Positions 1 to 17,053 of a stretch of 64,000 nt of DNA are shown here, piece after piece. This DNA is from Terriglobia bacterium (GTDB taxonomy: Bacteria > Acidobacteriota > Terriglobia > Versatilivoradales > Versatilivoraceae). Made by a program: the position numbers and the translations under genes. Position 1 is the first letter of the stretch; each line of letters begins with the position of its first letter. The notes under the pieces are model-generated. The model did no database searches. It was not told the DNA's origin and saw nothing but the letters and a program-made list of their open reading frames with translations. Location of the stretch: NCBI GenBank assembly GCA_965215235.1, contig OZ244053.1, positions 4,844,760-4,908,759 on the forward strand. The letters run 5' to 3'.

Positions 1-1272
1 CGGCAACCAGATTGAAAGCCAGCGCATGCGAGCAGCTATTCCGAACGCCGCCGCGAGCAGGATGAGTCGGCAGATCATGCCCAGGGTCAGCCCCCAGGCG
101 GCGGCCGCTACGCCGGCGACGGGATAGAGCACGAGCATCGCAACAAGATTCGCCGCCAGTCCCAGGGAGAAAGCGCAGGAACAGACGCCCGGGCGGTCGA
201 TACCCTTGAAGTATGTTCCGAGTATGCCGGCGCAGGCACAGGCGAGCACTCCGGGGGCGATGATCCACAGCAGCGGGACTACCGGCAGGAAGGCTCCGGG
301 GAACAGGATTCGAACCAGCGGCGTGCTGATCGCGAGCAGGAGGAGAATCGCGGCCACGGTACTGCACGACACGACCCGCAGGCAGAGCGCCGTCAAATCC
401 GGGCGGCCGCTGCCTGCGATGCGGGGCAGCAGCGCGTTGCCGACCGCGTCGGAGATCATGCGAAGCCGGAACATGAGCGTGTGCGCGGTTGCGAACAGGC
501 CGATTTCCGCCGGGCTCGCGATCAGCCCGAGAAGGAGAACGCCCGCGCTCATTTCTAGCTCGCCGGCTATGCCCGCGGGGTGAAATCGCAGACCGTACGC
601 GATGACTCGCGTGGAGACGGTGCGGAGCGGATTCACCAGAACCAGCCCGTGATGGCGCCGCAGGTACCACGCGCACAAGGCCACGGTGCAACCGTGCGCG
701 GCGGCGACCGCGAGCACGGCGCCGTCCACGCCGAGTCCCGATAGCCGCACGAGGACAAGAAGAACGAGGGCGTTCACGGCGAGGTGAAGCAGGGTGAACA
801 CCGCGAGACGTCCGAAGTGGCGGAGGGCCGCGAGTTGACGCTCCATGGCGCCCGAGAACGCCATGAGCGGAACCAGGGCAAGCGCCAAAAAGAAGGTACG
901 CGTGTCCGCCTGCTGAAAGAAGGCCATCTCACCGTGGACCAACGGGATCGCCAGGGAGACGGCCAGAGCTCCGCCGACGAGGCAGATCGCGAGGGCGGCG
1001 CCGACGCCTTCCGAGACGGTCGCCTGTCTCGTGATGACGAAGTACTGCGCGCCTTCTCGCGCCCCCGGCGTGAAGAGCACGCTGAGAAAACTCGCGAACA
1101 CGACGCACAGGGCGAAGCTGCCGCGGCCTGCCGGCAACAGCATGTAGGCCAGAAGACTCTGGATCGCGAGGCCCACGACGACCTTGCCGACACGGGTCAC
1201 GAACGTGATGGCTGCGTCCCGCCCGCCGGTCGTGTGCGGACGTCGTGGTGTATGGGGCTTTTCCGGTGTCAC
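1..1272 (-). CDS. Wzx-like polysaccharide/O-antigen flippase (MOP/PST type); C-terminus runs off the left window edge
   Basis: Own minus-strand translation from GTG at 1272-1270: VTPEKPHTPRRPHTTGGRDAAITFVTRVGKVVVGLAIQSLLAYMLLPAGRGSFALCVVFASFLSVLF... There are 424 continuous codons with no stop and many hydrophobic helices (..LLPRIAGSGRPDL.., ..VLYPVAGVAAAAWGLTLGMI..). It is absent from the ORF track because no stop lies inside the window. The GTGA start/stop overlap with the upstream GT4 gene suggests an operon. Confidence 0.7.
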   Translation of the reverse strand, partial: MTPEKPHTPRRPHTTGGRDAAITFVTRVGKVVVGLAIQSLLAYMLLPAGRGSFALCVVFASFLSVLFTPGAREGAQYFVITRQATVSEGVGAALAICLVGGALAVSLAIPLVHGEMAFFQQADTRTFFLALALVPLMAFSGAMERQLAALRHFGRLAVFTLLHLAVNALVLLVLVRLSGLGVDGAVLAVAAAHGCTVALCAWYLRRHHGLVLVNPLRTVSTRVIAYGLRFHPAGIAGELEMSAGVLLLGLIASPAEIGLFATAHTLMFRLRMISDAVGNALLPRIAGSGRPDLTALCLRVVSCSTVAAILLLLAISTPLVRILFPGAFLPVVPLLWIIAPGVLACACAGILGTYFKGIDRPGVCSCAFSLGLAANLVAMLVLYPVAGVAAAAWGLTLGMICRLILLAAAFGIAARMRWLSIWLP

Positions 1273-2529
1273 GGCTGCGACGTTTTCTGGCGCCACGCCA
1301 GTTGCTCGAACAACGCGACGTACGCGTCGGCGGCTTTCTCGGGTGAGAAGTCGGCGGCTCGCGCCTGCAGCGCTTTCTCCGGCGGGTGCTCGCCGCGCAG
1401 GGTCTTGACCAACTCTTGCGCCAGCGCCGGCGCGTCGCCCACCGGCGGCAGATCGCCCCACTGCCCGAGGATCTCGCGCGGTCCATAGGGCGCGTCGGTG
1501 CTGACCACGGGCGTGCCGCAGGCCAGCGCCTCGAGGATCACCGTCGGCAGCCCCTCCCAGCGCGAGGAAAGCGCGAACAGCCCCGCGCGTCTCATGTACC
1601 GGTACGGGTTCTCGTCGAAGTCCACGAAACCGATATCCTCGTCGACGCCGTGGCCCCGCGCCAGGGACAGTAGCGTTGCCCGGTAGGAGGGCGACAGCTT
1701 GCCGAGGATGACCAGCCGCGCGTCCACGTCGCGGCGCGCCAGCCCGAACGCCTCCACGAGGGTGGGGTGGTCCTTCTGGGGCGCCTCGCGCCCGACGCTC
1801 AGGACCACCGGCGGCTCGTCGTCCGCAAACCAGGGATGAGTAACTTCCTCCTGCGCCAGGCGCCGTATGCTGTCGGCGGGGATGGGGTTGTAGATGGCGT
1901 GAATGCGCTTGGCGTCCAATCCCAGCGATCGTTGCACGGATTCGGCCACGCCCCTGGACACCGCCACCACCGCGTCCGCCAGCGGATAGAGCGTCCGTGC
2001 GGCGGCCAGCCATTCAGGCGCATAGGCAGCGGTGACGTTGTTGCGGACCGTGACCACAGTTGGAACCGCCCGGTCGCTCAACTGCGCGGCGCAGACCATG
2101 GCGGCGTCGGCGCCCGGCAGCGCCGACACCAGCAGGTGAGGACGCGCCTCGCGAACGTACCGCGCGATCATGTATGTATACGCATAGACGCGGTGACGCC
2201 TTCGAACGGGCAGGTCGAGCCCCTTCCGGTTGAGAGCCAGCCAAGCCCGCGCGGCCCCCGGCGGGGTTGACGGTCATCGCCTCCACCTCGACTCCGGACC
2301 GCTGCACCTCCTGCAGCAGCTTCCTGTCGGTCCCTGGGATCCGCGCCCGATGGACACGCATTCCGCCGGGGACCGCGGCCCGGTAGTCCCCCGCGAACCG
2401 TGGGATCACAAGGTCCGCGCGGTGCCCGCGGTCGATGAGCGACCGCGCCAGGCGGAGAATATTGCGCTCCGCCCCGCCGCCGTTCAGGCTGGTCAGCAGG
2501 AAGCCGACATGGAGCTTGTCGGACGTCAC
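1269..2529 (-). CDS. GT4-family glycosyltransferase, tandem unit a. It has an apparent +1 frameshift at a homopolymer near 2262-2268.
   Basis: N-terminus VTSDKLHVGFLLTSLNGGGAERNILRLARSLIDRGHRADLVIP... (GTG at 2529) lies in one frame. C-terminal 300 aa (track ORF 1269..2171: ..VVLSVGREAPQKDHPTLVEAF..LSSRWEGLPTVILEALACGTPVVSTD..) lies in another. Shifting frame at the run gives TVNP-GAARAWLALNRKGL..YMIARYVREARP, collinear with unit b. Length 1261 nt = 3n+1. Confidence 0.75.
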
Positions 2530-3785
2530 GGTGCACGCTCGCTCACCAGCTTCTCGAACAACGCGACGTACGCGTCGGCGGCTTTCTCGGGTGAGAAGTC
2601 GGCGGCTCGCGCCTGCAGCGCTTTCTCCGGCGGGTGCTCGCCGCGCAGGGTCTTGACCAACTCTTGCGCCAGCGCCGGCGCGTCGCCCACCGGCGGCAGA
2701 TCGCCCCACTGCCCGAGGATCTCGCGCGGTCCATAGGGCGCGTCGGTGCTGACCACGGGCGTGCCGCAGGCCAGCGCCTCGAGGATCACCGTCGGCAGCC
2801 CCTCCCAGCGCGAGGAAAGCGCGAGCAGCCCCGCGCGTCTCATGTACCGGTACGGGTTCTCGTCGAAGTCCACGAAACCGATATCCTCGTCGACGCCGTG
2901 GCCCCGCGCCAGGGACAGTAGCGTTGCCCGGTAGGAGGGCGACAGCTTGCCGAGGATGACCAGCCGCGCGTCCACGTCGCGGCGCGCCAGCCCGAACGCC
3001 TCCACGAGGGTGGGGTGGTCCTTCTGGGGCGCCTCGCGCCCGACGCTCAGGACCACCGGCGGCTCGTCGTCCGCAAACCAGGGATGAGTAACTTCCTCCT
3101 GCGCCAGGCGCCGTATGCTGTCGGCGGGGATGGGGTTGTAGATGGCGTGAATGCGCTTGGCGTCCAATCCCAGCGATCGTTGCACGGATTCGGCCACGCC
3201 CCTGGACACCGCCACCACCGCGTCCGCCAGCGGATAGAGCGTCCGTGCGGCGGCCAGCCATTCAGGCGCATAGGCAGCGGTGACGTTGTTGCGGACCGTG
3301 ACCACAGTTGGAACCGCCCGGTCGCTCAACTGCGCGGCGCAGACCGCGACGGCGTTTGGGCCCGGAAGCGCGGACACCAGAACATCAGGACGCGCATCAC
3401 GAACGTACCGCGCCAGAATATGAGCGTAGGGATAGATGGAGCGCATGCCGCTGCCGCGTATTGCGGGTATCCGGGGATACCTCCAAGCGAGAACCAACCA
3501 TGCCCGCGCGGCCCCGAAGGGGTTGACGGTTGTCGCTTCCACCTCTATTCCCGCCCTCCGGACTGCGCGCAGCAGCTTCCTGTCGGTCCCTGGGATCCGC
3601 GCCCGATGGACACGCATTCCGCCGGGGACCGCGGCCCGGTAGTCCCCCGCGAACCGTGGGATCACAAGGTCCGCGCGGTGCCCGCGGTCGATGAGCGACC
3701 GCGCCAGGCGGAGAATATTGCGCTCCGCCCCGCCGCCGTTCAGGCTGGTCAGCAGGAAGCCGACATGGAGCTTGTCGGACGTCAC
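2526..3785 (-). CDS. GT4-family glycosyltransferase, tandem unit b (intact, 419 aa)
   Basis: GTG at 3785 overlaps the TGA of unit c (GTGA). Sequence runs VTSDKLHVGFLLTSLNGGG...RWEGLPTVILEALACGTPVVSTDAPYGPREIL...FEKLVSERAP*. It shows the EX7E-type GT4 C-terminal Rossmann half. The track ORF 2526..4517 is a run-through of this frame. Confidence 0.85.
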   Translation of the reverse strand: MTSDKLHVGFLLTSLNGGGAERNILRLARSLIDRGHRADLVIPRFAGDYRAAVPGGMRVHRARIPGTDRKLLRAVRRAGIEVEATTVNPFGAARAWLVLAWRYPRIPAIRGSGMRSIYPYAHILARYVRDARPDVLVSALPGPNAVAVCAAQLSDRAVPTVVTVRNNVTAAYAPEWLAAARTLYPLADAVVAVSRGVAESVQRSLGLDAKRIHAIYNPIPADSIRRLAQEEVTHPWFADDEPPVVLSVGREAPQKDHPTLVEAFGLARRDVDARLVILGKLSPSYRATLLSLARGHGVDEDIGFVDFDENPYRYMRRAGLLALSSRWEGLPTVILEALACGTPVVSTDAPYGPREILGQWGDLPPVGDAPALAQELVKTLRGEHPPEKALQARAADFSPEKAADAYVALFEKLVSERAP

Positions 3786-6700
3786 GGTGCACGCTCGCTC
3801 ACCAGCTTCTCGAACAACGCGACGTACGCGTCGGCGGCTTTCTCGGGTGAGAAGTCGGCGGCTCGCGCCTGCAGCGCTTTCTCCGGCGGGTGCTCGCCGC
3901 GCAGGGTCTTGACCAACTCTTGCGCCAGCGCCGGCGCGTCGCCCACCGGCGGCAGATCGCCCCACTGCCCGAGGATCTCGCGCGGTCCATAGGGCGCGTC
4001 GGTGCTGACCACGGGCGTGCCGCAGGCCAGCGCCTCGAGGATCACCGTCGGCAGCCCCTCCCAGCGCGAGGAAAGCGCGAGCAGCCCCGCGCGTCTCATG
4101 TACCGGTACGGGTTCTCGTCGAAGTCCACGAAACCGATATCCTCGTCGACGCCGTGGCCCCACGCCAGGGACAGTAGCGTTGCCCGGTAGGAGGGCGACA
4201 GCTTGCCGAGGATGACCAGCCGCGCGTCCACGTCGCGGCGCGCCAGCCCGAACGCCTCCACGAGGGTGGGGTGGTCCTTCTGGGGCGCCTCGCGCCCGAC
4301 GCTCAGGACCACCGGCGGCTCGTCGTCCGCAAACCAGGGATGAGTAACTTCCTCCTGCGCCAGGCGCCGTATGCTGTCGGCGGGGATGGGGTTGTAGATG
4401 GCGTGAATGCGCTTGGCGTCCAATCCCAGCGATCGTTGCACGGATTCGGCCACGCCCCTGGACACCGCCACCACCGCGTCCGCCAGCGGATAGAGCGTCC
4501 GTGCGGCGGCCAGCCATTCAGGCGCATAGGCAGCGGTGACGTTGTTGTGGACCGTGACCACAGTTGGAACCGCCCGGTCGCTCAACTGCGCGGCGCAGAC
4601 CGCGGCCGTGTCGGCGCTCGGCAGCGCCGACACCAGGATCCGAGGACGCGCCTTGCGGATGTAGCGGATTAGAGTATGGACGGATGCATACAGAGAACGC
4701 TTGCGCCGGACTCGTATGCCCGGGTACTTCCGGGCAAGGACGAGCCCGATCCAGGCGACCGTGAACGGGTTCACGCCAAGCGCCGTGACCCGCATGCCGT
4801 TTGCGTCCTCTACTCCTCCTCCCGCCGACCGTTGGACTTCCCGAAGAAACGTCCTGTCGGTGTGCGGAAGCCGCCCTCGATAAAGCCGCAACCCACGGGG
4901 GATGGCGGCCTGGTAGTTTCCCGCGAAACAGGGAATCACCAGGTCGACCCGGTGCCCGCGCGCGATGAGCGACTGCGCCAGGCGGAGAATACTCCGCCCC
5001 GCCCCGCCGCCGTTCAGGCTGGGCAGCACGAAGCCGACGTGGAGCTTGTCGCCGGCCACCGGCTGCGCCTTCGCGCGGCGTCGGTCGCTGTCGTGCGCCG
5101 CGCCCATCGCGACGCTCAACCCGGCGAGAAACATGAACGCTTCAAGGCTGAGCAGATCCGAGAAGGTCATGCTGTACAGGGCGATGATGATGACCCAAGC
5201 TACGGTTGCATCCCGGGCAAGCGACTTCGGTGCGCCCCATTGCGCGCGCAGCAGCAAGAGAATGGCGGACAGGAACAGCAGCAGCGGGACGATGCCGGCC
5301 TCTCCCAGCAACGTAATATACAGATTGTGAGGATCCTGCAGCAGGCCGCTGTGTGAGATGGGGCTGCCTTCCAGGTACTTCAGCGCCCTCAGACCGTGAC
5401 CGAAGACCGGTGCTTCCATCGCCTTCCGGAAGCCCAGTCTCCAGAGCCGCAGTCTGTCCGTCGTCAGGAACGTACACAGGAGGCTGTCATCGCTATCGTG
5501 GCTGCGCAGACCGTGCAGCTCGGGCGGCAGGCAGGAGGCGTCCAGTTCGTTATCCGCCAGGGTCAGGGAAAGCTCCCTGATTTTGGCCAGTTCCAGCGGG
5601 ACCGCACCAGTAAGACGGTTGTCGGCCAGCCACAGTTGCCTGAGATTCGCAAGGTCGGCAATCTCGCGCGGGATGGGGCCGGTCAGGCGATTGCCGCCGA
5701 GCGACAGCATGGTCAGACCAGCGAGGTTTCCCAGTTCCGGCGGAATGGCGCCGGTGAGTCGGTTGCCGTCCAACAGCACCATCTCGACATGACTCAGTTC
5801 GCCCAATTCCGAGGGAATGTGGCCGGTCAGGTTCCTGTCACGCAAGTCCAGCGATGCGAGCGTGCCGTGCCTCGAGATGGCGACGCCGTCCCAGGACGCA
5901 ACTGGGCGGGCGTAGCTCCAGTTCAGCGCCGCGTCGCCGGCCAGAACGTCGCGCATGCGCATCAGACGCGCGCCGACTTCGAACTGGCCGGATTTTCTCC
6001 AGGGCGGCGGCTCGCAGGCCAGGCCGGCTTCCACCAAGTCGTGCCGCGTCGTTGCCGCGAGCCGCGAAGCCGGAACGCAACTGGTGAATGCATTACCGCT
6101 CAGGCGCAGTACGGCAAGACGAAGCAACCTGCCAAGTTCCGCCGGGATTCCTCCGCCCAGACGATTGTTATCGAGCCGCAGTTCCTCCAGATGCGACAGA
6201 TTGCCGAACTCCGGATGCATGGCGCCCGCCAATGCGTTGTTCTCCAGCGCAAGCACCCGCAGTTCGGTCAACGTGGTCAATTCCCGCGGAATGCCGCCAG
6301 TGAGTTCGTTGCCTCCGAGACGCAGTGAATCGAGTGCCCGCAACGCATCCAGTTCCGGCGGGATCTCGCCGGTCAGCGCATTGTTCTCCAGCGTCAGCGT
6401 CCGCAGTCCGGTCAGTGCGGCCAGTTCCGGCGGTATGGCGCCTGTGAGGCGGTTGTCGCCAAGATGCAGAACGGCCAAGCCGTCCAAGGCCGAGAGCGCC
6501 GCGGGAATTCGTCCGTTCAGTCCCGTATGCGACAGATCCAGGGCGATGACGCGCGGCTCGTCCGCAGCTTCGCCGTCGAACGCGGAATAGCCGAGGGTGA
6601 CGCCGCGCCAATAGTCGATGGGGACCGTGTCGCTCCAGTTCAGTTCGACATCGCCCGTCAGCACGTCGCGGGCGTCCAACAGCGCGACGCAGTCGTCATG

Positions 6701-9700
6701 CAGGCGCGGCAGTGCTTCGCGGAGGGATCGGCAAAGCGGGTTCCGGTCGAAAACCCGGCGGCGGCCGGCATCTGGCGCCGGCGGGTCGTCAGCCGCCTCG
6801 TCATCATCCAGCCGGAACGCAGCCAGCCCGGGCAGCGCGGTCACCGCAGACGGCGCGGGGCCGATCAGGCGGTTCCCGTGCAGCCACAGGACGGTCAGCC
6901 TCGACAGCTTGCCCAGTTCCGGCGGTACGGTACCGGTCAAGAGGTTGCCGTTCAATGCCAGCATGCGCAGATCGAGGAGGTTGCCGAGCTCGGGCGGGAT
7001 CGCGCCCGCAAGCCGGTTGCGGTCCAGGCGCAGCGCGGCGAGTCCGTCAAGCTGCCCCAACTCCGGGGGGATGTTTCCGTGCAACCCCATTTGCGTCAGC
7101 TCCAGCGCCTTCACACGGCCACGAGAGCGGTCCACGACGACGCCCAGCCAGTCATCCAGGGGCACATCGCGGCTCCAGTTGAGCGGCGCATTCCCGGCGA
7201 GGGCGTCCTTCGCTCCCAGCAAAAGGGCGCAGTCGGCAAGCAGGCCCGGATCGATTTTCCTCGGCCGGCAGAAAACGGGCGTGTCGAGGTCATGGTCGAC
7301 AATTTCGTCGAGCGCCGGCGGGAACGGCCGGTCCAGGTCGTTGCCGGCGAGGCGCAGCAGGGACAGATTGTCCAATCCTTCCAGCTCCGGCGGAATGGCC
7401 CCGGTGAGCCGGTTATGGCTCAGATCCAGAGCGACGAGGCCGCTCAATTCGCCGAGTTCCGCGAACAGGCGTCCGTTCAGCCCCGCGCGTCGCAGTTCCA
7501 GGGCGGTCACGCGCTGCGGCGCACCGCCGACGGAGACGCCCTGCCAGAATTCGATGGGGATTTCCTCGCTCCAGTTGAGCGGCGCCTCGCCGGCCAGGAA
7601 TTCCCGGTTCGCCAACAGCAGGGCGCAGTCGGCTTGCAGCTCGGAAGCAATGCCGGTGGAGGGTTGACAGAACAGACGTTCGACCGCATCCAGACCATCC
7701 CCTCCAGTGGGGCGGGCCGCTGTCTGCGCCGCCTCTGTATTGCCGAGTGATCGAGGCAGGCGCATATCGTCCAGGTCGAGGTCGTGACTGTCGATCCGGT
7801 AGAGACGCTGCGGAAACGGCCGGTCCAGATCGTTGCCGGCGAGGCGCAGCAGGGACAGATTGTCCAGGCCTTCCAGTTCGGGTGGTACCGGGCCGGTGAG
7901 TCGGTTGCCGACCAGATCCAGCGTAACGAGCTGGCGCAATCGTCCGAGCTCCGGCGGGATGTGGCCGTTCAGACCGGCGCGTGACAGCTCCAGGGCGGTC
8001 ACGCGCTGCGACGAGGCGTCGACGGTGATGCCCTGCCAGGACTCGATGGGGAGATGGGCGCTCCAGTTGAGCCACGCGTCGCCAGCCAGGAAGTCCCTCG
8101 CGGCCAGCAGGAGCGCGCAATCAGAGCGCAAACCGGGGCTGTCGGCGGGAGCGGCGGGGCAGTACGCGTCGTCGCTGACAAGCGCGCGCAGTTCGGGGGG
8201 CATGGAACCGGTCAGCCGGTTGCCGCTCAACCGGAGGTTCTCCAAGCTCGGCAGCTTCGCCAGTTCCAGCGGGATGGAGCCGGTCAGGGCGTTGGCGGCA
8301 AGCCCCAGTACTTTCAGGTTGGTCAGCTTCTCCAGTTCGGGCGGGACAGGGCCGGTCAATCTATTGCCGTCGAGCACCAGGCGCTGCAAGCTGGTGAGAC
8401 TCCCCAACGCAGCGGGAACACGCCCGTTCAGTCCCGTTCGCGGCAATTCCAGCGCGATGACACGACCTTGCGGACCGCCGAGGGTCACGCCTTGCCATTC
8501 GCCTATCGACAAGGCCGTGCTCCAGTTGAGCCACGCGTCGCCAGCCAGCGTGTCCTTCGCCGCCAGGAGCAGGGCGCAGTCGTCGTACAACGGAGGGTTC
8601 AGCCGGTTGAACCGCGGCGGCGGCCGGCAGAATACGAAGTGGCCGAGATCATTCTCGGAGATCTGGAACAGGGCTGGCGGAACAGGGTTTGTCAGGCGGT
8701 TCTCTCTCAACCACAGGGTCCGCAGCCGGGGGAGCTGTCCCAGCTCCGGCGGAACGGGACCGGTGAGCCGATTGCCGGCCAGGTTCAATGAGGCCAGGCC
8801 CTCCAGACCGACGACCTCCGGGGGAATGCGGCCGGTCAGCCCTTTCCCGGACAGGTCGAGCGCCGTCACACGTTCCGCTACGCCGCTCACGGTCACGCCC
8901 TGCCAAAAGCCGACAGGGACGTCCGTGCTCCAGTTGAGCCGCGCGTCGCCAGCCAGCGTGTCCTTCGCCGCGAGCAGCGCAGTGCAGTCCTCGAAGAACG
9001 CCTGGCTCACTGGCGTCGGCAGGCAGAACCGCCCCGTCAGGTCGTGATTGGGGACGATGCTGAGCTGGGGAGGAATGGAATCGAAGTCGTTGCCCGAGAG
9101 ACGCAGGAGGGACAGGTCGATTTCGCCGAGACCGACCGGAACCGGACCGCCCAGGCGATTGTTCCGCAGCCACAGTTCCTCGAGGTTCTCAAGCTTCCCC
9201 AGCTCCGGCGGAATGGCGCCGGTCAAGGCATTGAAGCTGAGTCTCAGATTTCTCAGGCTCGCCAGATTCCCCAACTCGGGCGGAATGCGGCCGGTGAGCC
9301 GATTTCGAGCAAGATCCAGCAAGACAAGGCGATCCAGGCGACCGAGCTCCGGGGGGATACGGCCGTTCAATCCCAATTCCCGCAGACGGAGCGCCGTGAC
9401 TCGTCCCTGCGGGCCATCCACTGTCACGCCCTCCCACCATTTGACAGGTACGGAGCGACTCCAGTTCAGCGTGATGTCTCCCGCCAGGAAGTCCCTCACG
9501 GCCAGCAGCACGGCGCAGTCGGTACCGGGACTGTCGGCCGGCGAAGGGCAGTAGAACGGGGTTTCCCCAAGCGCCTCGGCGGTCCGCAACCTCCGCCATT
9601 CGGCAAGAACCACGGATGAACTCGTGAGTCCGACCAATCCAGCCATTCCCGCCGTTACGGTGACCGCCAACAGGACGATGGCCTTCGGTTTGCTGCGGAC

Positions 9701-10492
9701 ATTCATCAACAGGAACACCGCCGCCATCGCGGCGAATACGAGGAGCGCTGTTCGGGACGCCGTCCCCAGGCCTGCGGCGACGCCGGCGGCCAGGCCCAGC
9801 CAGCCGAGCGCGCGCGGCCCGCCGTTGGTCAGAAATGCCGCGGCCAGCCCCGCCGTCATGCAGGCGGCCACACCGGCACTGTTGGGGTCGTCGAATGCGC
9901 CGGTCAGGCGGAACGGAATTCTGTAAGGCGCCAGGATGCCCAGATCGCGCAGAATCGGCGAAGCGAGAATGACGGCGCAGCTCATGGTCAGAACGACAAG
10001 CACGCCCTGCAACAACCGGTCGGCCCCGACTCGTTCCAGCACCGCGCGGCCACCCATCGCGGCGGCCACGAGCACGCCGAAACAGAGGACCGAATACTTC
10101 ACGCTCTCGGCCGTGCCCGGTTGCCAGTCCGCCTCGTCCATCACGGCGGCGCCGACCATCAGATAGGACGCCACTGCTGCGAACAGCAACACGCCGGGCG
10201 TTCCACCGAGTCTTCTCCAGATGGGGGTGAGTGAACCGGATGTGCTCGAGGCGGACAGGCAACGGATTCCGATCAGGACGAACAGGATGCCGCAGCAGGC
10301 CATGACCGCCCGTGCGATAACGCCCACGACCTCCGGCATCCCCCAAAGGTGCAGATAACGCAAGCAGGCCAGGGCCATGACCGCCAATGTCCAGAACGCG
10401 ACTGCGATCAGCGCGGTCTGGAGCGGCTCGCTCCGGCGCAGGAACGACTCGATAGGCGAGCTTGACATGAACGGCAAGTGGAGTCTCCCCAT
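3782..10492 (-). CDS. Giant fusion protein: O-antigen ligase/polymerase-like (Wzy_C-type) membrane domain, interrupted by eight capped plant-type LRR modules, with a C-terminal GT4 glycosyltransferase domain (tandem unit c)
   Basis: Single open frame (track 3782..10621, 2279 aa). The likely start is ATG 10492 (MGRLHLPFMSSSPIES), 1 nt after the stop of the upstream GMC remnant. Wzy_C-like motifs are RLTGAFDDPNSAGVA, GTASRTALLVF, DRLRLWRLGFRKAMEAPVFGHGL and HNLYITLLGEAGIVPLLLF. LRR consensus is LxxLxLxxNrLTGxIPPELGxL. The GT4 domain starts at VAGDKLHVGFVLPSLNGGG (GTG 5059), with no stop before it. Confidence 0.8.
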   Translation of the reverse strand: MGRLHLPFMSSSPIESFLRRSEPLQTALIAVAFWTLAVMALACLRYLHLWGMPEVVGVIARAVMACCGILFVLIGIRCLSASSTSGSLTPIWRRLGGTPGVLLFAAVASYLMVGAAVMDEADWQPGTAESVKYSVLCFGVLVAAAMGGRAVLERVGADRLLQGVLVVLTMSCAVILASPILRDLGILAPYRIPFRLTGAFDDPNSAGVAACMTAGLAAAFLTNGGPRALGWLGLAAGVAAGLGTASRTALLVFAAMAAVFLLMNVRSKPKAIVLLAVTVTAGMAGLVGLTSSSVVLAEWRRLRTAEALGETPFYCPSPADSPGTDCAVLLAVRDFLAGDITLNWSRSVPVKWWEGVTVDGPQGRVTALRLRELGLNGRIPPELGRLDRLVLLDLARNRLTGRIPPELGNLASLRNLRLSFNALTGAIPPELGKLENLEELWLRNNRLGGPVPVGLGEIDLSLLRLSGNDFDSIPPQLSIVPNHDLTGRFCLPTPVSQAFFEDCTALLAAKDTLAGDARLNWSTDVPVGFWQGVTVSGVAERVTALDLSGKGLTGRIPPEVVGLEGLASLNLAGNRLTGPVPPELGQLPRLRTLWLRENRLTNPVPPALFQISENDLGHFVFCRPPPRFNRLNPPLYDDCALLLAAKDTLAGDAWLNWSTALSIGEWQGVTLGGPQGRVIALELPRTGLNGRVPAALGSLTSLQRLVLDGNRLTGPVPPELEKLTNLKVLGLAANALTGSIPLELAKLPSLENLRLSGNRLTGSMPPELRALVSDDAYCPAAPADSPGLRSDCALLLAARDFLAGDAWLNWSAHLPIESWQGITVDASSQRVTALELSRAGLNGHIPPELGRLRQLVTLDLVGNRLTGPVPPELEGLDNLSLLRLAGNDLDRPFPQRLYRIDSHDLDLDDMRLPRSLGNTEAAQTAARPTGGDGLDAVERLFCQPSTGIASELQADCALLLANREFLAGEAPLNWSEEIPIEFWQGVSVGGAPQRVTALELRRAGLNGRLFAELGELSGLVALDLSHNRLTGAIPPELEGLDNLSLLRLAGNDLDRPFPPALDEIVDHDLDTPVFCRPRKIDPGLLADCALLLGAKDALAGNAPLNWSRDVPLDDWLGVVVDRSRGRVKALELTQMGLHGNIPPELGQLDGLAALRLDRNRLAGAIPPELGNLLDLRMLALNGNLLTGTVPPELGKLSRLTVLWLHGNRLIGPAPSAVTALPGLAAFRLDDDEAADDPPAPDAGRRRVFDRNPLCRSLREALPRLHDDCVALLDARDVLTGDVELNWSDTVPIDYWRGVTLGYSAFDGEAADEPRVIALDLSHTGLNGRIPAALSALDGLAVLHLGDNRLTGAIPPELAALTGLRTLTLENNALTGEIPPELDALRALDSLRLGGNELTGGIPRELTTLTELRVLALENNALAGAMHPEFGNLSHLEELRLDNNRLGGGIPAELGRLLRLAVLRLSGNAFTSCVPASRLAATTRHDLVEAGLACEPPPWRKSGQFEVGARLMRMRDVLAGDAALNWSYARPVASWDGVAISRHGTLASLDLRDRNLTGHIPSELGELSHVEMVLLDGNRLTGAIPPELGNLAGLTMLSLGGNRLTGPIPREIADLANLRQLWLADNRLTGAVPLELAKIRELSLTLADNELDASCLPPELHGLRSHDSDDSLLCTFLTTDRLRLWRLGFRKAMEAPVFGHGLRALKYLEGSPISHSGLLQDPHNLYITLLGEAGIVPLLLFLSAILLLLRAQWGAPKSLARDATVAWVIIIALYSMTFSDLLSLEAFMFLAGLSVAMGAAHDSDRRRAKAQPVAGDKLHVGFVLPSLNGGGAGRSILRLAQSLIARGHRVDLVIPCFAGNYQAAIPRGLRLYRGRLPHTDRTFLREVQRSAGGGVEDANGMRVTALGVNPFTVAWIGLVLARKYPGIRVRRKRSLYASVHTLIRYIRKARPRILVSALPSADTAAVCAAQLSDRAVPTVVTVHNNVTAAYAPEWLAAARTLYPLADAVVAVSRGVAESVQRSLGLDAKRIHAIYNPIPADSIRRLAQEEVTHPWFADDEPPVVLSVGREAPQKDHPTLVEAFGLARRDVDARLVILGKLSPSYRATLLSLAWGHGVDEDIGFVDFDENPYRYMRRAGLLALSSRWEGLPTVILEALACGTPVVSTDAPYGPREILGQWGDLPPVGDAPALAQELVKTLRGEHPPEKALQARAADFSPEKAADAYVALFEKLVSERAP
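5475..9553 (-). repeat. Coding repeat array: eight modules. Each is a Cys + LLxxKDxLAGDxxLNWS..W.GVT cap, then 3-8 24-residue LRRs, then a Cys C-cap. The array is inserted in the Wzy_C periplasmic loop.
   Basis: Eight occurrences of the ..DC[AT]xLLxx[KR]DxLAGDxxLNWSxxxPxxxWxGV[TS]V..RVTAL.L cap were counted in the translated ORF. Modules 4 and 5 share LTGxxPPELEGLDNLSLLRLAGNDLDRPFP verbatim. Confidence 0.85.
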
Positions 10493-10493
10493 G

Positions 10494-11060
10494 TCACGGC
10501 GACCTGGTCGGGATCGAAGGGCTCTCCTGGATGTCGTCGGTGGAGAGGTCCTCCTCTCGACGCCGGAGCCGATGCCGTCGTCGGTCCGCCGCGCCGCGGC
10601 CGGCCGCCCCCTCCGCCGCATCCTGGATCACGAACTCCGCCCCCTTCTCGGCGATCATCACCGTCGGGGCGTTCGTGTTGCCTGAGGTGATCCGCGGCAT
10701 TACCGAGGCGTCGATGACCCGCAGGCCGGCGACACCGTGCACGGCGAGTCGGTCGTCGACAACGGCGAGGGGATCGTGCCCCATCCTGCACGTGCCGACG
10801 GGGTGGAAGATCGTCGTGCCGAGGTCCCGCGCCGCGTGGGCCAGCGCGTCGTCGCCCTCGACGCCGGGACCGGCTTCCACTCCTGCGACTCGAAGCGGGC
10901 CAGGGCCCTCGCGGCCATGATGCGCCGGGTGAAGCGCAGGCCGGCCACCGCCACCCGGAGATCCGCTTCGGTGGACAGTACAGTATAGTTGAAGGTGATG
11001 GCCGGCGCCCGCAGGGGTCGGCGTCCTTTATCCGCACGTGTCCGCGGCTGGTCGGCTGTT
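10494..11060 (-). pseudogene. GMC-family (choline dehydrogenase-like) oxidoreductase, C-terminal remnant; 5'-truncated by IS debris and internally frameshifted
   Basis: The pieces ..SRGHVRIKDADP / APAITFNYTVLSTEADLRVAVAGLRFTRRIMAARALARFESQE / VEAGPGVEGDDALAHAARDLGTTIFHPVGTCRMGHDPLAVVDDRLAVHGVAGLRVIDASVMPRITSGNTNAPTVMIAEKGAEFV lie in three frames. These are classic GMC C-terminal motifs. The N-terminal FAD domain is absent. Confidence 0.7.
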
Positions 11061-11077
11061 TGCCCATGCGTCTGACC

Positions 11078-11310
11078 ATGGTACTACACCGGCTGCTGGG
11101 TGTCACGCAGATGCACGTCCGGGATGCGTATATCGGGAAGTCGGGGCTGTTGGCGGTGGGGGTGCGGCCGTCGTGGCTCCGGTCGCGTTGCGGGGCGTGC
11201 GGGGAGCGCGCGCCGCGGTATGACCGCCAGCCGTTGCGGCGGTGGCGCCACGTGCCGTGGGGCCGGACGCCGGTGGAGGTGGAGTACGCGCCGTGGCGGG
11301 TGTCGTGCAG
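11078..11310 (+). mobile_element. ISL3-family transposase, N-terminal zinc-finger fragment only
   Basis: MVLHRLLGVTQMHVRDAYIGKSGLLAVGVRPSWLRSRCGACGERAPRYDRQPLRRWRHVPWGRTPVEVEYAPWRVSC matches the ISL3 N-terminal pattern (LLGL..V..V.., CxxCG, RRWRHL.., RVxC). The reading frame degenerates after about 11310. Confidence 0.6.
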
Positions 11311-11544
11311 ATGGTGGCGGACTGGCCGCGCCGCTACCGCCTCGAGCCGTGGCTGGTGGAGACGCTGGTGGACCCGCGCCGCCACCACGGCGGTTGTTAT
11401 CGTGCCGCCAACTGGGTCGCATTGGGCGCGACCACCGGTCGCGGGCGCATGGACCGGCTCTGCCGCCGTGTCGGTGAAGCGCCCAAGACGGTTCTCGTTT
11501 ATCCTGTGGTCCGGGATGCGAGGCGGCGGCTGCGGGAGAGTTGA
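11300..11544 (+). pseudogene. DUF4338-like protein, C-terminal fragment (accessory gene usually found upstream of ISKra4-type transposases)
   Basis: Track ORF 11242..11544 reads ..ADWPRRYRLEPWLVETLVDPRRHHGGCYRAANWVALGATTGRGRMDR...PKTVLVYPVVRDARRRL. This matches the ETFVD..GTCYRAANW..G.T.GRGR pattern recalled for DUF4338. The N-terminal part is missing. Confidence 0.5.
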
Positions 11545-11547
11545 GCC

Positions 11548-13157
11548 ATGCAAGTCGCCACCTGCGCCGCTGCACCCACCCCGGTGTATGGGGAGGCGAA
11601 GACCACCTTCGCACAGACCATAGCCTACCTCTCGTCGCGCGAGGCCCTGCAGATGAGTGAAAGCGACCTGGAGCGGGAGCTGCACCGGCGTGGTCAGGAG
11701 CTGATACGCAAGCTCCTGCAAGGGCACCTCGACCAACGCGGCCCGGGAGAGGCGGCCGGCCCGGTCGCGGGGGCCGACGGTGTCGAGTGCCCGGAGCGGC
11801 GCGTGCACGACCGGCGCCTGGAAACGACCTTCGGCACGGTGGACGTCGAGCGGGTGGGCTACGGGCGCGCGGGTCACGAGAGTCTCCATCCGCTGGATGC
11901 GTCACTGAATCTGCCGCCGGAGCGTTACTCGCTCGAGGTGCGCCGTCGGGTGGCCGAAGCGGCCGCGTCGCGGTCCTTCGACGAAGCGCTGTTCGACCTG
12001 TCGCGCCATACCGGGGCGCAGGTTCCCAAGCGGCAGGCGGAACAGTTGGCGGCTCGCGCGGCCGAGGACTTCGACGCCTTCTACGAGGCGCGGCGTGCGG
12101 CGGCGGGCGAGCCGGCTTCTGAAGAGTCGGTGGTCGTGCTCACCTTCGACGGCAAGGGCGTGGTGCTGCACCGTGACGACCTGCGCGAGGCGACGCGGCG
12201 GGCGGCTGAGCGGCGGCGGCAGCAACGCGAGCAGCTCTCCCCGTTCCAGCGCCTGCAGCCGGGCGAGAAAATGCACGCGAAGCGCATGGCGACGGTGGCC
12301 GCCGTCTACGCGGTCGCGCCGTTCGTGCGCAGCGTGGAGGAATTCCTGCAAGGCTTGATGCCCCGACAGCCGGGGGACAATACCAAGAAGACCAGGAAGG
12401 CCAAGACCCCGGCGGTGCGGCCCCGCCCGGTGGCCAAACGGGTCTGGGCGAGCCTCGAACACGAGCCGGCGGAGGTGATCGCCGAGGCGTGCTGGAAGCC
12501 GAGCGCCACGACCCCGAGCGCGTCAAGCGCTGGGTGGTGCTCGTCGACGGGGCCGAGACGCAGCTCGACCTCGTCGAGGCGGGCGCCGCCGCCTACGGCG
12601 TCGACGTCACCGTGATCCTCGACATCATCCACGTGGTCGAGTACGTCTGGAAGGCGGCGCACGTGTTCCATCGCGAGGGGAGCCCCGACGCCGCGCATTG
12701 GGCCTGGACGCGCGTGCAGAGCATTCTCGAGGGCAAGGCCCGCCGGGTGGCGGCGTCGATGCGGCGCGCGGCGACCGTCGCCGGCCTCTCACGCGACACC
12801 CGCAAGCCGGTCGATAGGTGCGCGGACTACCTGCTGAAGTACGCGCCGTATCTGCACTACGACCGCTACCTCGCGGCGGGCTATCCCATCGCCACCGGCG
12901 TGATCGAAGGAGCGTGCCGGCATCTGGTCCGCGACCGGATGGACCTGACGGGCGCCCGCTGGCGCCTGGTCGGCGCCGAGGCGGTGTTGAAGCTGAGGGC
13001 GTTGCGCGCCAGCGGCGACTTCGATGCGTATTGGGACTTCCACGAAGCCCGCGAGTACGAGCGGAACCACGCCCAGCACTACGCTGACGGGATAGCGCCG
13101 CCAGTCACCGAACCGCCCCCATCACCCTCTTCGCCCCGCCTCCGACGGGTCAAGTAG
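11548..13157 (+). mobile_element. ISKra4-like family transposase; apparent 1-nt frameshift near 12480-12490
   Basis: Track ORFs 11548..12615 and 12489..13157 join as ..EPAEVIAEA|VLEAERHDPERVKRWVVLVDGAETQL..ILDIIHVVEYVWKAAH..IATGVIEGACRHLVRDRMDLTGARWRLVGAEAVLKLRALRASGDFDAYWDFH. These are DDE-type ISKra4 signatures. Total length is 3n+2. Confidence 0.7.
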
Positions 13158-13794
13158 CTCTTGCCATGCTGGTCGCAGAAGCCCCCATGGACCTCTCTGG
13201 CCCCCGACGAAAAAGAGCCGCACCCCTCGCCTCGTCCTTGGTCTACAGCAACGTGGCGAGCAGGCCCTGACGAGCCTGACGAGGGCGCGATTGTGGGCCT
13301 GTGCTCCCGCGGATTCGCAACAGGATCCCGATTATTTGGCGGTCCTGGTGCGACAACTCGCGCGGTATTGCGAGTCCGAAGCAAAGCGTCGCGCGAATGT
13401 CCAGGGGGCGCCGGCGGGAACCGACCGAGGCGTCCAGGCGTCCGGATCAGGACGGCCGGCTGCTCTGGCTGCCCGGAATCAGACGGGGGGCGAATGCTGT
13501 CCCCCCGCACGGCACACCCAAGAGGGAGCGCCCGCGAGCGCAAACGCCCATGAACAGGGAGGGAAATGCTCTACGAAGAAGAGCCGCACCCAATGAAGAC
13601 CCTTGTCCTACACCCCAGAATGAATCCCCTCACTTTCCTGACGTGCACCCCTGGCTCCACCCCTACTCGACATCTTCCTGTTACTAGAGTATCCTGACAT
13701 GGATGGGGGGGCAATCCGACGGTGATTCGATGCCAGGCGGGAGCGCCGGCGGAAATGGAGAACGGGTAGTATCGTTGACGTACGGGCGAATTCG

Positions 13795-15421: not shown

Positions 15422-15841
15422 GGCGCCGGTGCGGCGGCCTGGCGGTTCGCCCTGTGGTTCGGGAGCGCGGTTCTGCGGCGCGTGTCCAGACGTCTCCGCG
15501 CCGCCCCGGCACCGCCGACACCCGCGATTCCTGCCAGGGCGAGGATGACCTGTGCTGCGATTCTCGGCGCGGCCTCCCCGTCTGGGACCGAGTATCCGCT
15601 GGGTGTAGAGATCATGCAAACCGGCTCCGAGACTTACCGAACGGTGGCGGCCCCTTGGTCTCGGAGGCGCAGTTGGCGAGCGACCGATGGCGTTGCGACT
15701 GGGGGTGGCCAGGCGGCTTCGGTCTGTGAATGCGGTCCGGAGGGTGTGCCGAGAGCCCTCTTGAGCAGTCGGAGACGGAAGGCGACCGTCCCGGGTGGCC
15801 CGGGAGTCGCGAGAAGCGCCTGGTGGTCATGAGAGCGCACA

Positions 15842-17044: not shown

Positions 17045-17053
17045 GGCCGTCGC

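What the first reader, a model, noticed from the sequence alone, without database searches (positions are those of the whole stretch)
3782..10492. O-antigen-ligase/polymerase-like membrane protein with eight capped plant-type LRR ectodomain modules filling its periplasmic loop, fused in frame to a GT4 glycosyltransferase
Seen in the sequence: there is one uninterrupted minus-strand frame of ~2,240 codons.
- The first ~310 aa are multi-TM with O-antigen-ligase-family hallmarks (RLTGAFDDPNSAGVA, GTASRTALLVF).
- From ..TPFYCPSP (approx 9553) to ..DSLLCTFL (approx 5475) come eight consecutive modules. Each has a Cys + LLxx[KR]DxLAGDxxLNWSxxxPxxxWxGVT cap resembling plant LRRNT_2. Each then has 3-8 repeats of the 24-residue LxxLxLxxNxLTGxIPPELGxL consensus and a Cys-containing C-cap.
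- The rest of the Wzy_C core then resumes (DRLRLWRLGFRKAMEAPVFGHGL, HNLYITLLGEAGIVPLLLF, more TM helices).
- With no stop codon, a full GT4 domain follows (VAGDKLHVGF.., GTG 5059).

Established knowledge: in WaaL/Wzy_C proteins the loop between these motifs is periplasmic, catalytic and normally ~60-150 aa. The 24-residue plant-specific LRR class with an LRRNT cap is the ectodomain architecture of plant receptor kinases.

Inference: this would be a polymerase/ligase displaying ~1,360 aa of eukaryote-like LRR surface on the outer face. The array could be a host- or glycan-binding scaffold coupled to polysaccharide assembly. I am not aware of this domain order having been described.
Basis: partly seen in the sequence, partly recalled or inferred. 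Interest (0 to 1): 0.85.

Follow-up and report, generated by a model that had tools for sequence, protein, structure and literature searches.

The report
Membrane glycan enzyme carrying plant-type LRR array
A bacterial inner-membrane sugar-chain ligase/polymerase carries eight plant-receptor-like leucine-rich-repeat domains in its periplasmic loop. It belongs to an undescribed gene family shared across many bacterial phyla, and here a lost stop codon has fused it to the next sugar-transferase gene.

Summary
One ORF (3782-10492, minus strand, 2236 aa) encodes nine TM helices, eight capped LRR modules, the rest of a Wzy_C core with three more TM helices, and a full GT4 domain.

With the array removed in silico, the protein gives one contiguous Wzy_C match (62 bits). 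Each module folds like a whole plant SERK/BAK1 ectodomain (Foldseek TM 0.70-0.77, rmsd about 2 A).

The architecture is not unique. More than 100 unnamed proteins in public assemblies, mostly MAGs, combine Wzy_C and LRR, with 1-15 modules. The same subfamily also has insert-free members. A second, distant Wzy_C clade carries the same modules at a different point of the same loop.

Close relatives (55-73% identical) sit in Acidobacteriota, Proteobacteria, Nitrospirota, Gemmatimonadota, Entotheonella and Binatia MAGs. This implies horizontal transfer. The habitat is probably sponges, but I did not verify that.

The GT4 fusion occurs only in this lineage. Relatives have TGA-CCG-GTG at the junction; the window and a sister strain have CAG-CCG-GTG.

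Predicted topology puts the array in the periplasm, not on the cell surface.

The gene heads a cassette of Wzy_C-LRR, three GT4 genes and a Wzx-like flippase. The enzyme role is therefore plausible. What the LRR array does is unknown. I rate it a new variant of a known kind.

The parts
3782..10492 (-). Whole fused gene (2236 aa from ATG 10492; alternative start ATG 10468; the frame is open up to 10621)
9587..10492 (-). N-terminal membrane domain: nine predicted TM helices. Carries the subfamily-invariant periplasmic motif FRLTGAF..DPN (9872-9913) and GTASRT (9749-9766), where the Wzy_C match begins
   Evidence: hydropathy; AF2 model with pLDDT 85; invariant columns; coordinates
9026..9553 (-). 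LRR module 1 (Cys pair, helical N-cap, 5 LRRs)
8630..9025 (-). LRR module 2 (3 LRRs)
8162..8629 (-). LRR module 3 (4 LRRs)
7670..8161 (-). LRR module 4 (3 LRRs plus an acidic or disordered tail)
7271..7669 (-). LRR module 5 (3 LRRs)
6734..7270 (-). LRR module 6 (4-5 LRRs plus an acidic linker)
6080..6733 (-). LRR module 7 (7 LRRs)
5534..6079 (-). LRR module 8 (degenerate cap, 4-5 LRRs). Modelled with pLDDT about 90; matches SERK/BAK1 ectodomains
5063..5533 (-). C-terminal part of the Wzy_C core: periplasmic helix DRLRLWRLG..FGHGL (5390-5458), HNLY..GEAGIV (5288-5332), TM10-12, basic cytoplasmic tail
5057..5065 (-). Fusion junction CAG-CCG-GTG. Relatives have TGA-CCG-GTG here (stop of the Wzy_C gene, 3-nt spacer, start of GT4)
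3782..5059 (-). GT4 (GT-B) glycosyltransferase domain, copy A of three tandem paralogues. The E-x7-E motif is kept (4034-4060)
2526..3785 (-). GT4 paralogue B (419 aa). Its GTG start overlaps the stop of the fused gene (GTGA)
1269..2529 (-). GT4 paralogue C, interrupted by a +1 G in a G-run near 2259. It is intact in the sister strain
1..1272 (-). Wzx-like (Polysacc_synt_3-type) flippase gene, running off the window end. It completes the conserved cassette

Best explanation
**What it is.** The gene encodes an inner-membrane, undecaprenyl-pyrophosphate-glycan-using enzyme of the Wzy_C (O-antigen ligase/polymerase-like) superfamily. It has 12 TM helices with both ends in the cytoplasm. It belongs to a small, uncharacterised subfamily.

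**The insertion.** Arrays of self-contained, SERK/BAK1-like plant-type LRR domains have been inserted into the large periplasmic loop of this subfamily. The insertion point lies between TM9 and the conserved amphipathic helix that precedes the GxG and HN motifs. The window protein carries eight such domains, about 1,340 aa.

**The cassette.** The gene heads a compact cassette: Wzy_C-LRR, three GT4 genes, and a Wzx-like flippase. The cassette has moved horizontally between many bacterial phyla. In this Vicinamibacterales genome it lies in a GC-rich island next to transposase and recombinase genes.

**Inferred mechanism.**
1. The GT4 enzymes build a lipid-linked oligosaccharide in the cytoplasm.
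2. The flippase moves it across the membrane.
3. The Wzy_C core polymerises it, or ligates it to an acceptor, at the periplasmic face.
4. The LRR array, tethered next to the active-site loop, acts as a periplasmic binding scaffold for a conserved partner: an acceptor, export machinery or the nascent chain.

**The fusion.** In this lineage the stop codon was replaced by CAG. The first GT4 is therefore made as a cytoplasmic C-terminal domain of the same polypeptide. That gives a two-sided bifunctional enzyme analogous to WadA.

**Shown:** architecture, insertion, fusion mechanism, family distribution, cassette.
**Inferred:** topology, catalytic activity, polymerase-versus-ligase role, and any function of the LRR array.
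For: - **Clean insertion.** Wzy_C scores 43 bits on the whole protein. It gives one contiguous 62-bit match once the array is removed.
- **Membrane domain model.** AF2 of the window core plus module 8 gives pLDDT 85 and pTM 0.78. It shows nine long helices before the module and three after it. Hydropathy and charge distribution agree.
- **Topology.** GT4, which must be cytoplasmic, is separated from the array by an odd number of helices (three). The basic N-terminus is separated from it by nine. Paired cysteines at every module junction fit an oxidising compartment.
- **Conserved core residues.** The R of FRLTG, the R of DRLRLW, GxG, and HN..GEAG are invariant or nearly so across insert-free and LRR-bearing members.
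- **Module fold.** Best PDB matches are SERK1/BAK1/SERK2/BIR ectodomains (TM 0.70-0.77, rmsd 1.9-2.5 A, 30-33% identity). All top-50 matches are plant LRR proteins, nearly all receptor or co-receptor ectodomains. The 24-residue consensus is the plant-specific class.
- **Family series.** Members carry 0, 1, 2 and 5-11 modules. A distant second Wzy_C clade has the same modules on the other side of the same helix. This argues for functional coupling between the array and the active-site loop.
- **Constraint on the array.** Modules show positional orthology across phyla. The array is as conserved as the enzyme core (0.67 against 0.63-0.67 pairwise identity).
- **Cassette.** It is conserved in L001, L002, L003 and L039, with the Wzy_C-LRR stop 3 nt before the GT4 start.
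- **Stop-codon loss.**. It is present in two independent assemblies.
- **Horizontal transfer.** The membrane domain is 55-73% identical across Acidobacteriota, Alpha- and Gammaproteobacteria, Nitrospirales, Gemmatimonadota, Entotheonella and Binatia MAGs. The island has GC 0.69 against 0.57 for the rest of the window. An IS91-type transposase and a recombinase lie at its edge.
- **Precedent for the fusion.** WadA (PMC9938171, PMC10920833).
Against: - No member of the subfamily has been studied, and no biochemical evidence exists.
- PDB sequence searches found no WaaL or other relative. The structural comparison of the membrane domain with WaaL could not be read, because LRR hits filled the Foldseek list.
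- The nearest NCBIfam models are far below their cut-offs: PEP_O_lig_1 47 against 188 bits, TfpM 20 against 600. Polymerase, lipid A-core ligase and protein O-glycosyltransferase therefore cannot be told apart.
- No initiating phosphoglycosyl transferase, chain-length regulator or outer-membrane export gene was seen in the stretches examined.
- Between the window and its sister strain, the Wzy_C-LRR part shows 14 nonsynonymous against 0 synonymous changes in the membrane domain. dN/dS is about 1.2 in the array. This could mean relaxed constraint in this lineage, although such ratios are inflated at low divergence.
- The retained GTG 5059 means GT4 might also be translated on its own.
- The third GT4 copy is frameshifted in the window.
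Confidence: 0.6

Rival explanations
1. It is a protein O-oligosaccharyltransferase (PglL/TfpO/TfpM-like) rather than a polysaccharide polymerase or lipid A-core ligase. The LRR array either recruits periplasmic acceptor proteins to the active site or is itself the glycosylated acceptor.
For: - The Wzy_C superfamily includes O-oligosaccharyltransferases (PMC3643930).
- The only NCBIfam hits to the core are a putative O-glycosylation ligase (TIGR03097, 47 bits) and TfpM (20 bits).
- LRR domains are typically protein-binding.
- The array is tethered directly beside the catalytic loop in two independent clades.
- Every cap carries a conserved N-W-S.
Against: - Both NCBIfam scores are far below the family cut-offs of 188 and 600 bits.
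- Each Wzy_C-LRR gene travels with its own three GT4 genes, and the cassette includes a Wzx-like flippase. That is the classic layout of a Wzx/Wzy repeat-unit pathway.
- No candidate acceptor gene is conserved next to it; the upstream ORFs are not conserved.
Confidence: 0.2
2. The array is a eukaryote-like host-interaction device. It binds host (probably sponge) molecules or host glycans, after release in vesicles or after uptake by host phagocytes. The Wzy_C part serves mainly as a membrane anchor.
For: - The family is concentrated in MAGs whose taxa are typical of sponge microbiomes, including Entotheonella.
- LRR proteins are listed among the eukaryote-like proteins of sponge symbionts (PMC4996862).
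- The family is shared across phyla.
- dN/dS is about 1 or higher between the two close strains.
Against: - Predicted topology puts the array in the periplasm of a diderm cell, not on the surface.
- The catalytic-core residues stay invariant in LRR-bearing members.
- The array is as conserved as the enzyme core, and the concave face is no more variable than the convex face (0.55 against 0.57, p = 0.6).
- The sponge origin of the samples was not verified.
Confidence: 0.15
3. The fused reading frame is an artefact or a decaying gene: a sequencing error at the stop codon, or a lineage in which the cassette is no longer under selection.
For: - The third GT4 copy has a +1 frameshift in a G-run in the window.
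- The nonsynonymous-to-synonymous ratio is about 1 or higher against the sister strain.
- The cassette sits in a mobile, rearranging island.
Against: - The CAG codon is a substitution, not a homopolymer indel. It differs from the relatives' TGA at all three positions, and it is identical in two independent assemblies that differ by 3% elsewhere.
- The 6.7-kb frame is intact in both, and their only length difference is in frame.
- The C-terminal Wzy_C core is 100% conserved between the strains.
- An analogous GT4-GT4 fusion occurs in another genome.
Confidence: 0.05

Closest known systems
WaaL / Wzy_C (PF04932; CAZy GT121 O-antigen ligases and related Wzy polymerases and PglL-type O-oligosaccharyltransferases)
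   Same: - Significant Wzy_C match.
- 12 predicted TM helices with both termini in the cytoplasm.
- A large periplasmic loop between TM9 and TM10 with conserved Arg and His-Asn motifs.
- Genomic context with glycosyltransferases and a flippase.
   Different: - The loop is about 90-100 aa in insert-free relatives (read from the sequences). Here it holds about 1,340 aa of LRR domains.
- No detectable sequence similarity to any solved structure.
- It forms a small separate subfamily: 122 representatives out of 1.84 billion share the N-terminal membrane domain.
- The acceptor is unknown.
WadA of Brucella (bifunctional GT25 + O-antigen ligase; PMC9938171, PMC10920833)
   Same: [quoted passage not shown]
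   Different: - WadA has an N-terminal GT25. Here a C-terminal GT4 arose by recent stop-codon loss.
- The GT4's own start codon is retained.
- WadA has no LRR insertion.
Plant LRR receptor-kinase and co-receptor ectodomains (SERK1/BAK1, BIR, ERL, FLS2, PGIP)
   Same: - The 24-residue plant-specific LRR consensus.
- A helical N-cap of the LL..K..L...W..W.GV type.
- One module superposes on a complete SERK/BAK1 ectodomain (TM 0.70-0.77, about 2 A, about 32% identity).
   Different: - No kinase and no single-pass anchor.
- Eight ectodomain-like units in tandem inside a polytopic enzyme.
- The cap's Cys pair precedes the helix; the plant C.W.GV.C pattern is absent.
- The Pfam LRRNT_2 score is below threshold.
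Bacterial proteins with plant-type LRRs (e.g. Xanthomonas XopAC/AvrAC, XopAE, XopL) and LRR 'eukaryote-like proteins' of sponge symbionts
   Same: The LRR class. The NCBIfam XopAC and XopAE models match the repeats (174 and 153 bits).
   Different: - The scores are below the family cut-offs (450 and 600 bits).
- Those proteins are secreted effectors with Fic or ligase domains, whereas this array is a loop of an inner-membrane enzyme.
- No description of LRRs embedded in a Wzy_C protein was found.

Membership tests
Wzy_C / O-antigen ligase-like superfamily (PF04932) | Profile match above Pfam's gathering score | tested here: met
   43.1 bits on the whole protein in two stretches. 62.1 bits as one stretch covering profile positions 3-149 of 149 after removing the array. 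Cut-off 31.7.
Wzy_C / O-antigen ligase-like superfamily (PF04932) | Polytopic membrane protein (about 12 TM helices), termini cytoplasmic, large periplasmic loop after TM9 | tested here: met
   Prediction only. AF2 model with pLDDT 85 shows 9 + 3 long helices. Hydropathy and charge bias agree. The cytoplasmic GT4 lies three helices after the array.
Wzy_C / O-antigen ligase-like superfamily (PF04932) | Conserved periplasmic Arg and His residues needed for catalysis | tested here: inconclusive
   The R of FRLTG, the R of DRLRLW, and HN are invariant or nearly so in 59 subfamily members. Equivalence to the WaaL catalytic residues could not be established, because there is no alignment to a solved structure.
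WaaL (lipid A-core : O-antigen ligase) specifically | Orthology or structural match to characterised WaaL; waa/core-locus context | tested here: not met
   No NCBIfam WaaL model matched. No PDB sequence hit was found. The context is a GT4/flippase cassette, not a core-oligosaccharide locus.
Wzy polymerase of a Wzx/Wzy-dependent pathway | Encoded with repeat-unit glycosyltransferases and a Wzx flippase | tested here: met
   Wzy_C-LRR, 3-4 GT4 genes and a Polysacc_synt_3-type flippase occur together in the window, L001, L002 and L003. Tandem Wzy_C-LRR + GT4 units, without a flippase in the stretch fetched, occur in L039.
Wzy polymerase of a Wzx/Wzy-dependent pathway | Accompanied by a chain-length regulator, an export component and an initiating transferase | tested here: inconclusive
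   None was seen within the loci fetched. They could lie elsewhere in the genome.
Protein O-oligosaccharyltransferases (TfpM, PglL) / TIGR03097 exosortase-associated ligase | Score above the NCBIfam cut-off | tested here: not met
   TfpM 20 bits against 600; TIGR03097 47 bits against 188.
Plant-specific LRR class | 24-residue unit LxxLxLxxNxL(t/s)GxIPxxLGxLxx | tested here: met
   20 of 21 complete units are 24 aa, with consensus LxxLxLxxNRLTGxIPPELGxLxx. All top-50 PDB fold matches are plant LRR proteins.
LRRNT_2 (PF08263) | Score above the gathering threshold, and the C.W.GV.C cysteine pair | tested here: not met
   Best window cap scores 12.8 bits, E 0.15, against a cut-off of 20.7. 15 of 75 family caps match at E <= 1, best 0.0099, and it is the only recurrent family. 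The Cys pair lies before the helix instead. This is a resemblance, not a membership.
GT4 glycosyltransferases (GT-B) | Glyco_transf_4 plus Glycos_transf_1 domains and the E-x7-E motif | tested here: met
   75.6 and 90.1 bits. EGLPTVILE at aa 2188-2196. The nearest named model is PglJ at 110 bits against 500, so specificity is unknown.
WadA-type bifunctional O-antigen ligase | N-terminal GT25 domain fused to a GT121 ligase domain | tested here: not met
   Here the fused domain is a C-terminal GT4. It is an analogue, not a homologue.
XopAC/AvrAC type III effector | NCBIfam score of at least 450, and a Fic domain | tested here: not met
   174 bits, LRR region only. No Fic domain.

The most novel reading that the evidence does not exclude
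The Wzy_C-LRR proteins are receptor-enzymes. Tandem SERK-like ectodomains in the periplasm would bind a specific ligand, either a host- or community-derived peptide or glycan that crosses the outer membrane, or an envelope partner. Binding would gate or template glycan polymerisation or ligation at the adjacent active site. The array length (1-15 modules) would set reach or chain length across the periplasm. The mobile cassette would then give unrelated (probably sponge-associated) bacteria a common, regulated surface glycan.
Probability: 0.12. Interest if true: 0.9.

Novelty: new variant of a known kind. Interest (0 to 1): 0.62.

Why it matters
**New engineering of a known enzyme class.** Wzy_C enzymes make or attach the surface glycans that decide how bacteria are recognised. 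A subfamily whose catalytic loop carries up to 15 plant-receptor-like LRR domains was not described in any paper I could search.

**Evidence that the combination is functional.** The same modules were recruited at two different points of the loop in two distant Wzy_C clades. The array is as conserved as the enzyme core. Both observations suggest the combination works as a unit.

**Possible ecological role.** The cassette is 55-73% identical across at least six phyla of what look like sponge-associated bacteria. It is therefore a candidate shared 'symbiont glycan' module.

**Testable.** The family offers natural variants with 0, 1, 2 and 8-15 modules.

**The fusion.** It is a clean, datable example of how a two-sided bifunctional membrane enzyme (WadA-like) can arise, here by stop-codon replacement.

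Tried and rejected
- **PDB sequence searches.** I searched with the spliced core, the six-sequence profile and the 59-sequence profile. Only chance hits, or none, came back.
- **First AF2 run.** P0124 with a shallow 35-sequence alignment gave an unusable membrane domain (pLDDT below 50), although the LRR modules were good. A deeper alignment fixed this.
- **Foldseek on the good model.** It returned only LRR matches in the 50 rows shown, so similarity of the membrane domain to WaaL could not be read.
- **Exact look-ups of the window's own protein.** Starts at 10468 and 10492 both found no record.
- **Literature searches.** Queries for accession numbers and for Wzy_C + LRR found nothing relevant. 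The sponge origin of the MAGs therefore remains an inference from the taxon names.
- **Upstream ORFs.** The ORFs called upstream of the gene in other loci are not conserved and were dropped as partners. ORF 10408-11889(-), which overlaps the start, has no family match. The GC3-based gene screen did not pick it either, so I treat it as probably spurious.
- **Repeat-driven misassembly.** Rejected on the sister assembly and on module-by-module orthology.
- **Hypervariable binding face (arms-race model).** Rejected: concave and convex variable positions are equally conserved.

Full report
**1.

ORF 3782..10621 on the minus strand is open for 2279 codons. The probable start is ATG 10492. That gives 2236 aa, the length of an unnamed member (P0401) of the 90% cluster of the sister-strain protein. 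The sister strain's gene is called from the ATG equivalent to 10468.

Pfam finds the following on the whole protein:
- Wzy_C: 43 bits, split in two stretches.
- LRR families: very strong matches.
- GT4: Glyco_transf_4 and Glycos_transf_1.

Eight modules are present. Each has these parts:
- A cysteine pair. The pairs sit at nine junctions, from 358/369 to 1697/1716.
- A helical cap, ..C.LLL..[KR]D.LAGD..LNWS......W.GV.
- 3-7 repeats.

Twenty of 21 complete repeat units are exactly 24 residues long. Their consensus is LxxLxLxxNRLTGxIPPELGxLxx, the plant-specific LRR class. Module 8 has a degenerate cap.

**2. The array is a clean insertion into a Wzy_C core**

With residues 357-1716 removed in silico, Wzy_C matches as a single stretch. 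It covers profile positions 3-149 of 149 at 62 bits.

An AlphaFold2 model was built from the window's membrane core plus module 8, using a 59-sequence alignment. It reached pLDDT 85 and pTM 0.78. The order of elements in the model is:
1. Nine long helices.
2. The LRR module.
3. An amphipathic helix (DRLRLWRLGFRKAMEAP).
4. The GHG loop.
5. The HN..GEAG helix running into TM10.
6. TM11 and TM12.

Hydropathy and charge distribution agree with this.

The topology follows from three points:
- The N-terminus is basic and is separated from the array by nine helices.
- The GT4 domain uses nucleotide sugars, so it must be cytoplasmic. It is separated from the array by three helices.
- Paired cysteines at each module junction fit an oxidising compartment.

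Together these place the array in the periplasm. This is a prediction, not a measurement. The window also encodes a TonB-type outer-membrane barrel, so the cell is diderm. The array is therefore not surface-exposed.

**3. What the modules are**

Foldseek of the models against the PDB returns only plant LRR proteins in the top 50, nearly all of them receptor or co-receptor ectodomains. A single module aligns over about 152 columns with complete SERK1, BAK1, SERK2 and BIR ectodomains. Target-normalised TM-scores are 0.70-0.77, rmsd is 1.9-2.5 A, and identity is 30-33%.

The cap only resembles Pfam LRRNT_2:
- The best window cap scores 12.8 bits against a cut-off of 20.7.
- 15 of 75 caps from the family match at E <= 1, best 0.0099.
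- The plant C.W.GV.C cysteine pair is replaced by a pair ahead of the helix.

**4. It is a family, not a singleton**

The full-length search found more than 100 clusters of 1300-3250 aa carrying both LRR and Wzy_C. Searches with the spliced core and with an insert-free relative fill in a series within the same subfamily:

| Form | Length | Example |
|---|---|---|
| No insert | 436-490 aa | P0176, 44% identical over 94% of the core |
| About 130-aa non-LRR insert | 540-600 aa | P0159 |
| One module | about 600-640 aa | P0155 |
| Two modules | about 780 aa | P0121-P0158 |
| Five to eleven modules | 1300-2400 aa | P0002-P0091 |

A second group (P0075, P0113, P0119 and others) has 6-15 modules and reaches 3250 aa. 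Its spliced core is also a contiguous Wzy_C domain (48-52 bits). It is only distantly related to the first group (hhalign 85% probability, 19% identity). In that alignment DRLRLW..GHG corresponds to GRETFW..GRG, and HNLY to HNLF. In the first group the array lies N-terminal of this helix. In the second it lies C-terminal of it. The same type of capped module has therefore been installed at two points of the same loop in two Wzy_C lineages.

The N-terminal membrane domain itself is rare. Only 122 representatives out of 1.84 billion match it at E <= 1e-3. None of the ten proteins looked up carries a name or accession. I found no paper that describes LRRs within a Wzy_C protein.

**5. Not a misassembly, and under long-term constraint**

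A sister-strain assembly is a 4.06-Mb contig labelled as a Vicinamibacterales MAG. It is collinear with window 1-11058 at 97% identity. Its gene stays in frame: 2230 aa, 95% identical.

In eight-module orthologues from a Bryobacterales MAG and a Longimicrobiales MAG, module i of the window is the best match of module i, at 52-80% identity. Paralogous modules inside the window protein are only 23-52% identical.

Across nine eight-module orthologues, mean pairwise identity is 0.67 for the array and 0.63-0.67 for the membrane parts. The variable positions of the concave face are no less conserved than those of the convex face (0.55 against 0.57, p = 0.6). This argues against a hypervariable, arms-race surface and for a conserved partner.

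One observation points the other way. Between the window and its sister strain the membrane N-domain has 14 nonsynonymous and 0 synonymous differences. The array has dN/dS of about 1.2, while the C-terminal core is identical. At 2% divergence such ratios are known to be inflated. I record this as unexplained rather than as evidence of positive selection.

**6. Horizontal spread**

The genome scan found the membrane domain at 55-73% identity in MAGs labelled Vicinamibacterales, Bryobacterales, Alphaproteobacteria, Gammaproteobacteria/Pseudomonadales, Nitrospirales, Longimicrobiales/Gemmatimonadota, Candidatus Entotheonella and Candidatus Binatia. Several copies often occur per chromosome. Such identities across phyla imply horizontal transfer.

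In the window the cassette lies in a GC-rich stretch (0.66-0.70 against 0.53-0.61). That stretch ends at an IS91-type transposase and a tyrosine recombinase (15842-17923). The segment 11058-18108 is absent from the sister strain.

The taxon set, including Entotheonella, is typical of sponge microbiomes. LRR proteins are listed among the eukaryote-like proteins of sponge symbionts (PMC4996862). However, I could not link the accessions to a host. The sponge origin is an inference.

**7. The cassette and the fusion**

In L001, L002 and L003 the gene is followed by three or four GT4 genes and then a Polysacc_synt_3-type flippase. The window has the same order, with the flippase at 1-1272.

In L039 the unit Wzy_C-LRR plus three GT4 genes is repeated in tandem, with arrays of nine and two modules. 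Two of the GT4 genes there are themselves fused into one 834-aa product.

In L002 and L003 the junction reads ...AAG GC(G/A) TGA CCG GTG..., and a separate 416-aa GT4 gene begins at that GTG. The gene coordinates in L039 show the same 3-nt gap. In the window and in L001 the homologous codon is CAG, and everything else is collinear. The fusion is thus a stop-codon replacement, probably through a TAG intermediate. It is confined to this species-level lineage. Only P0001 and its cluster mate carry GT4 among all hits.

The fused GT4 is the first of three tandem paralogues. Their C-terminal halves are almost identical, which indicates gene conversion. The fused copy keeps the E-x7-E motif. The third copy is frameshifted in the window by one extra G in a G-run.

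A glycosyltransferase fused to an O-antigen ligase has a characterised precedent in Brucella WadA, which has an N-terminal GT25 (PMC9938171, PMC10920833).

**8. Most likely mechanism**

Shown:
- A Wzy_C-family polytopic protein whose conserved core motifs are retained.
- It is encoded with its own GT4 set and a flippase.
- It carries tandem SERK-like LRR domains beside the catalytic loop.
- It is fused to GT4 by stop-codon loss.

Inferred:
1. The GT4 enzymes assemble a lipid-linked oligosaccharide.
2. The flippase exports it.
3. The Wzy_C core polymerises or ligates it at the periplasmic face.
4. The array is a periplasmic binding scaffold for a conserved partner.
5. The fusion gives a two-sided enzyme.

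Sequence alone cannot decide between polymerase, lipid A-core ligase and protein O-glycosyltransferase. The nearest NCBIfam models score 47 against 188 bits and 20 against 600 bits.

**9. Verdict**

The interpretation needs four corrections:
- The location is periplasmic, not the cell surface.
- The protein is not unique in the databases.
- The fusion is a recent accident with a known analogue.
- LRRNT_2 is a resemblance only.

What remains is an undescribed, horizontally mobile family of Wzy_C enzymes with plant-type LRR arrays in the catalytic loop. I rate it a new variant of a known kind, of moderate to high interest.

Noticed in passing
window 1-18100; 15842-17923: A GC-rich island (0.66-0.70 against 0.53-0.61 in the rest of the window) ends at an IS91-type Y2 transposase (15842-17044, -) and a tyrosine recombinase (17054-17923, -). 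The segment 11058-18108, which includes a GT2 gene at 13795-15729, is missing from the sister strain. The flanks at 18108-18620 are 99% identical to that strain.
   Followed up: partly
window 1269-5059: There are three tandem GT4 paralogues. Their N-terminal halves have diverged, but their C-terminal halves are almost identical, which points to gene conversion. Copy C has one extra G in a G-run near 2259 (GGGGG against GGGG in L001). This breaks the frame and could be a long-read error or a pseudogene.
   Followed up: yes
window 5063-10468 compared with L001 10001-15400: Between the two strains the membrane N-domain shows 14 nonsynonymous and 0 synonymous differences. The LRR array has dN/dS of about 1.2, while the C-terminal Wzy_C core is identical. 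It is unexplained; it could be low-divergence inflation, relaxed constraint or selection.
   Followed up: partly
proteins P0075, P0079, P0080, P0113, P0119 (not in the window): A second, distantly related Wzy_C clade carries 6-15 of the same capped LRR modules (up to 3250 aa). They are inserted after the ..PWxGxG motif rather than before the preceding helix.
   Followed up: partly
L039 1-21273: Tandem cassettes occur in one genome: Wzy_C-LRR (2032 aa) plus GT4 genes, then Wzy_C-LRR (786 aa) plus three GT4 genes, then two more Wzy_C-LRR genes (783 and 805 aa). Two adjacent GT4 genes there are fused into an 834-aa product, so stop-loss fusions recur in these tightly packed cassettes.
   Followed up: no
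protein P0159 and about 30 relatives of 540-600 aa: In these subfamily members the same loop position holds a non-LRR insert of about 130 aa with no Pfam match.
   Followed up: no
window 26051-27847 and 51494-53317: Two paralogous FG-GAP/ASPIC-UnbV proteins. Elsewhere in the window: a CarboxypepD_reg-TonB-type outer-membrane barrel (40330-43677), a multihaem cytochrome (48494-50356) and tRNA-Val (21217-21291, -). This is ordinary chromosomal content consistent with an Acidobacteriota host.
   Followed up: no
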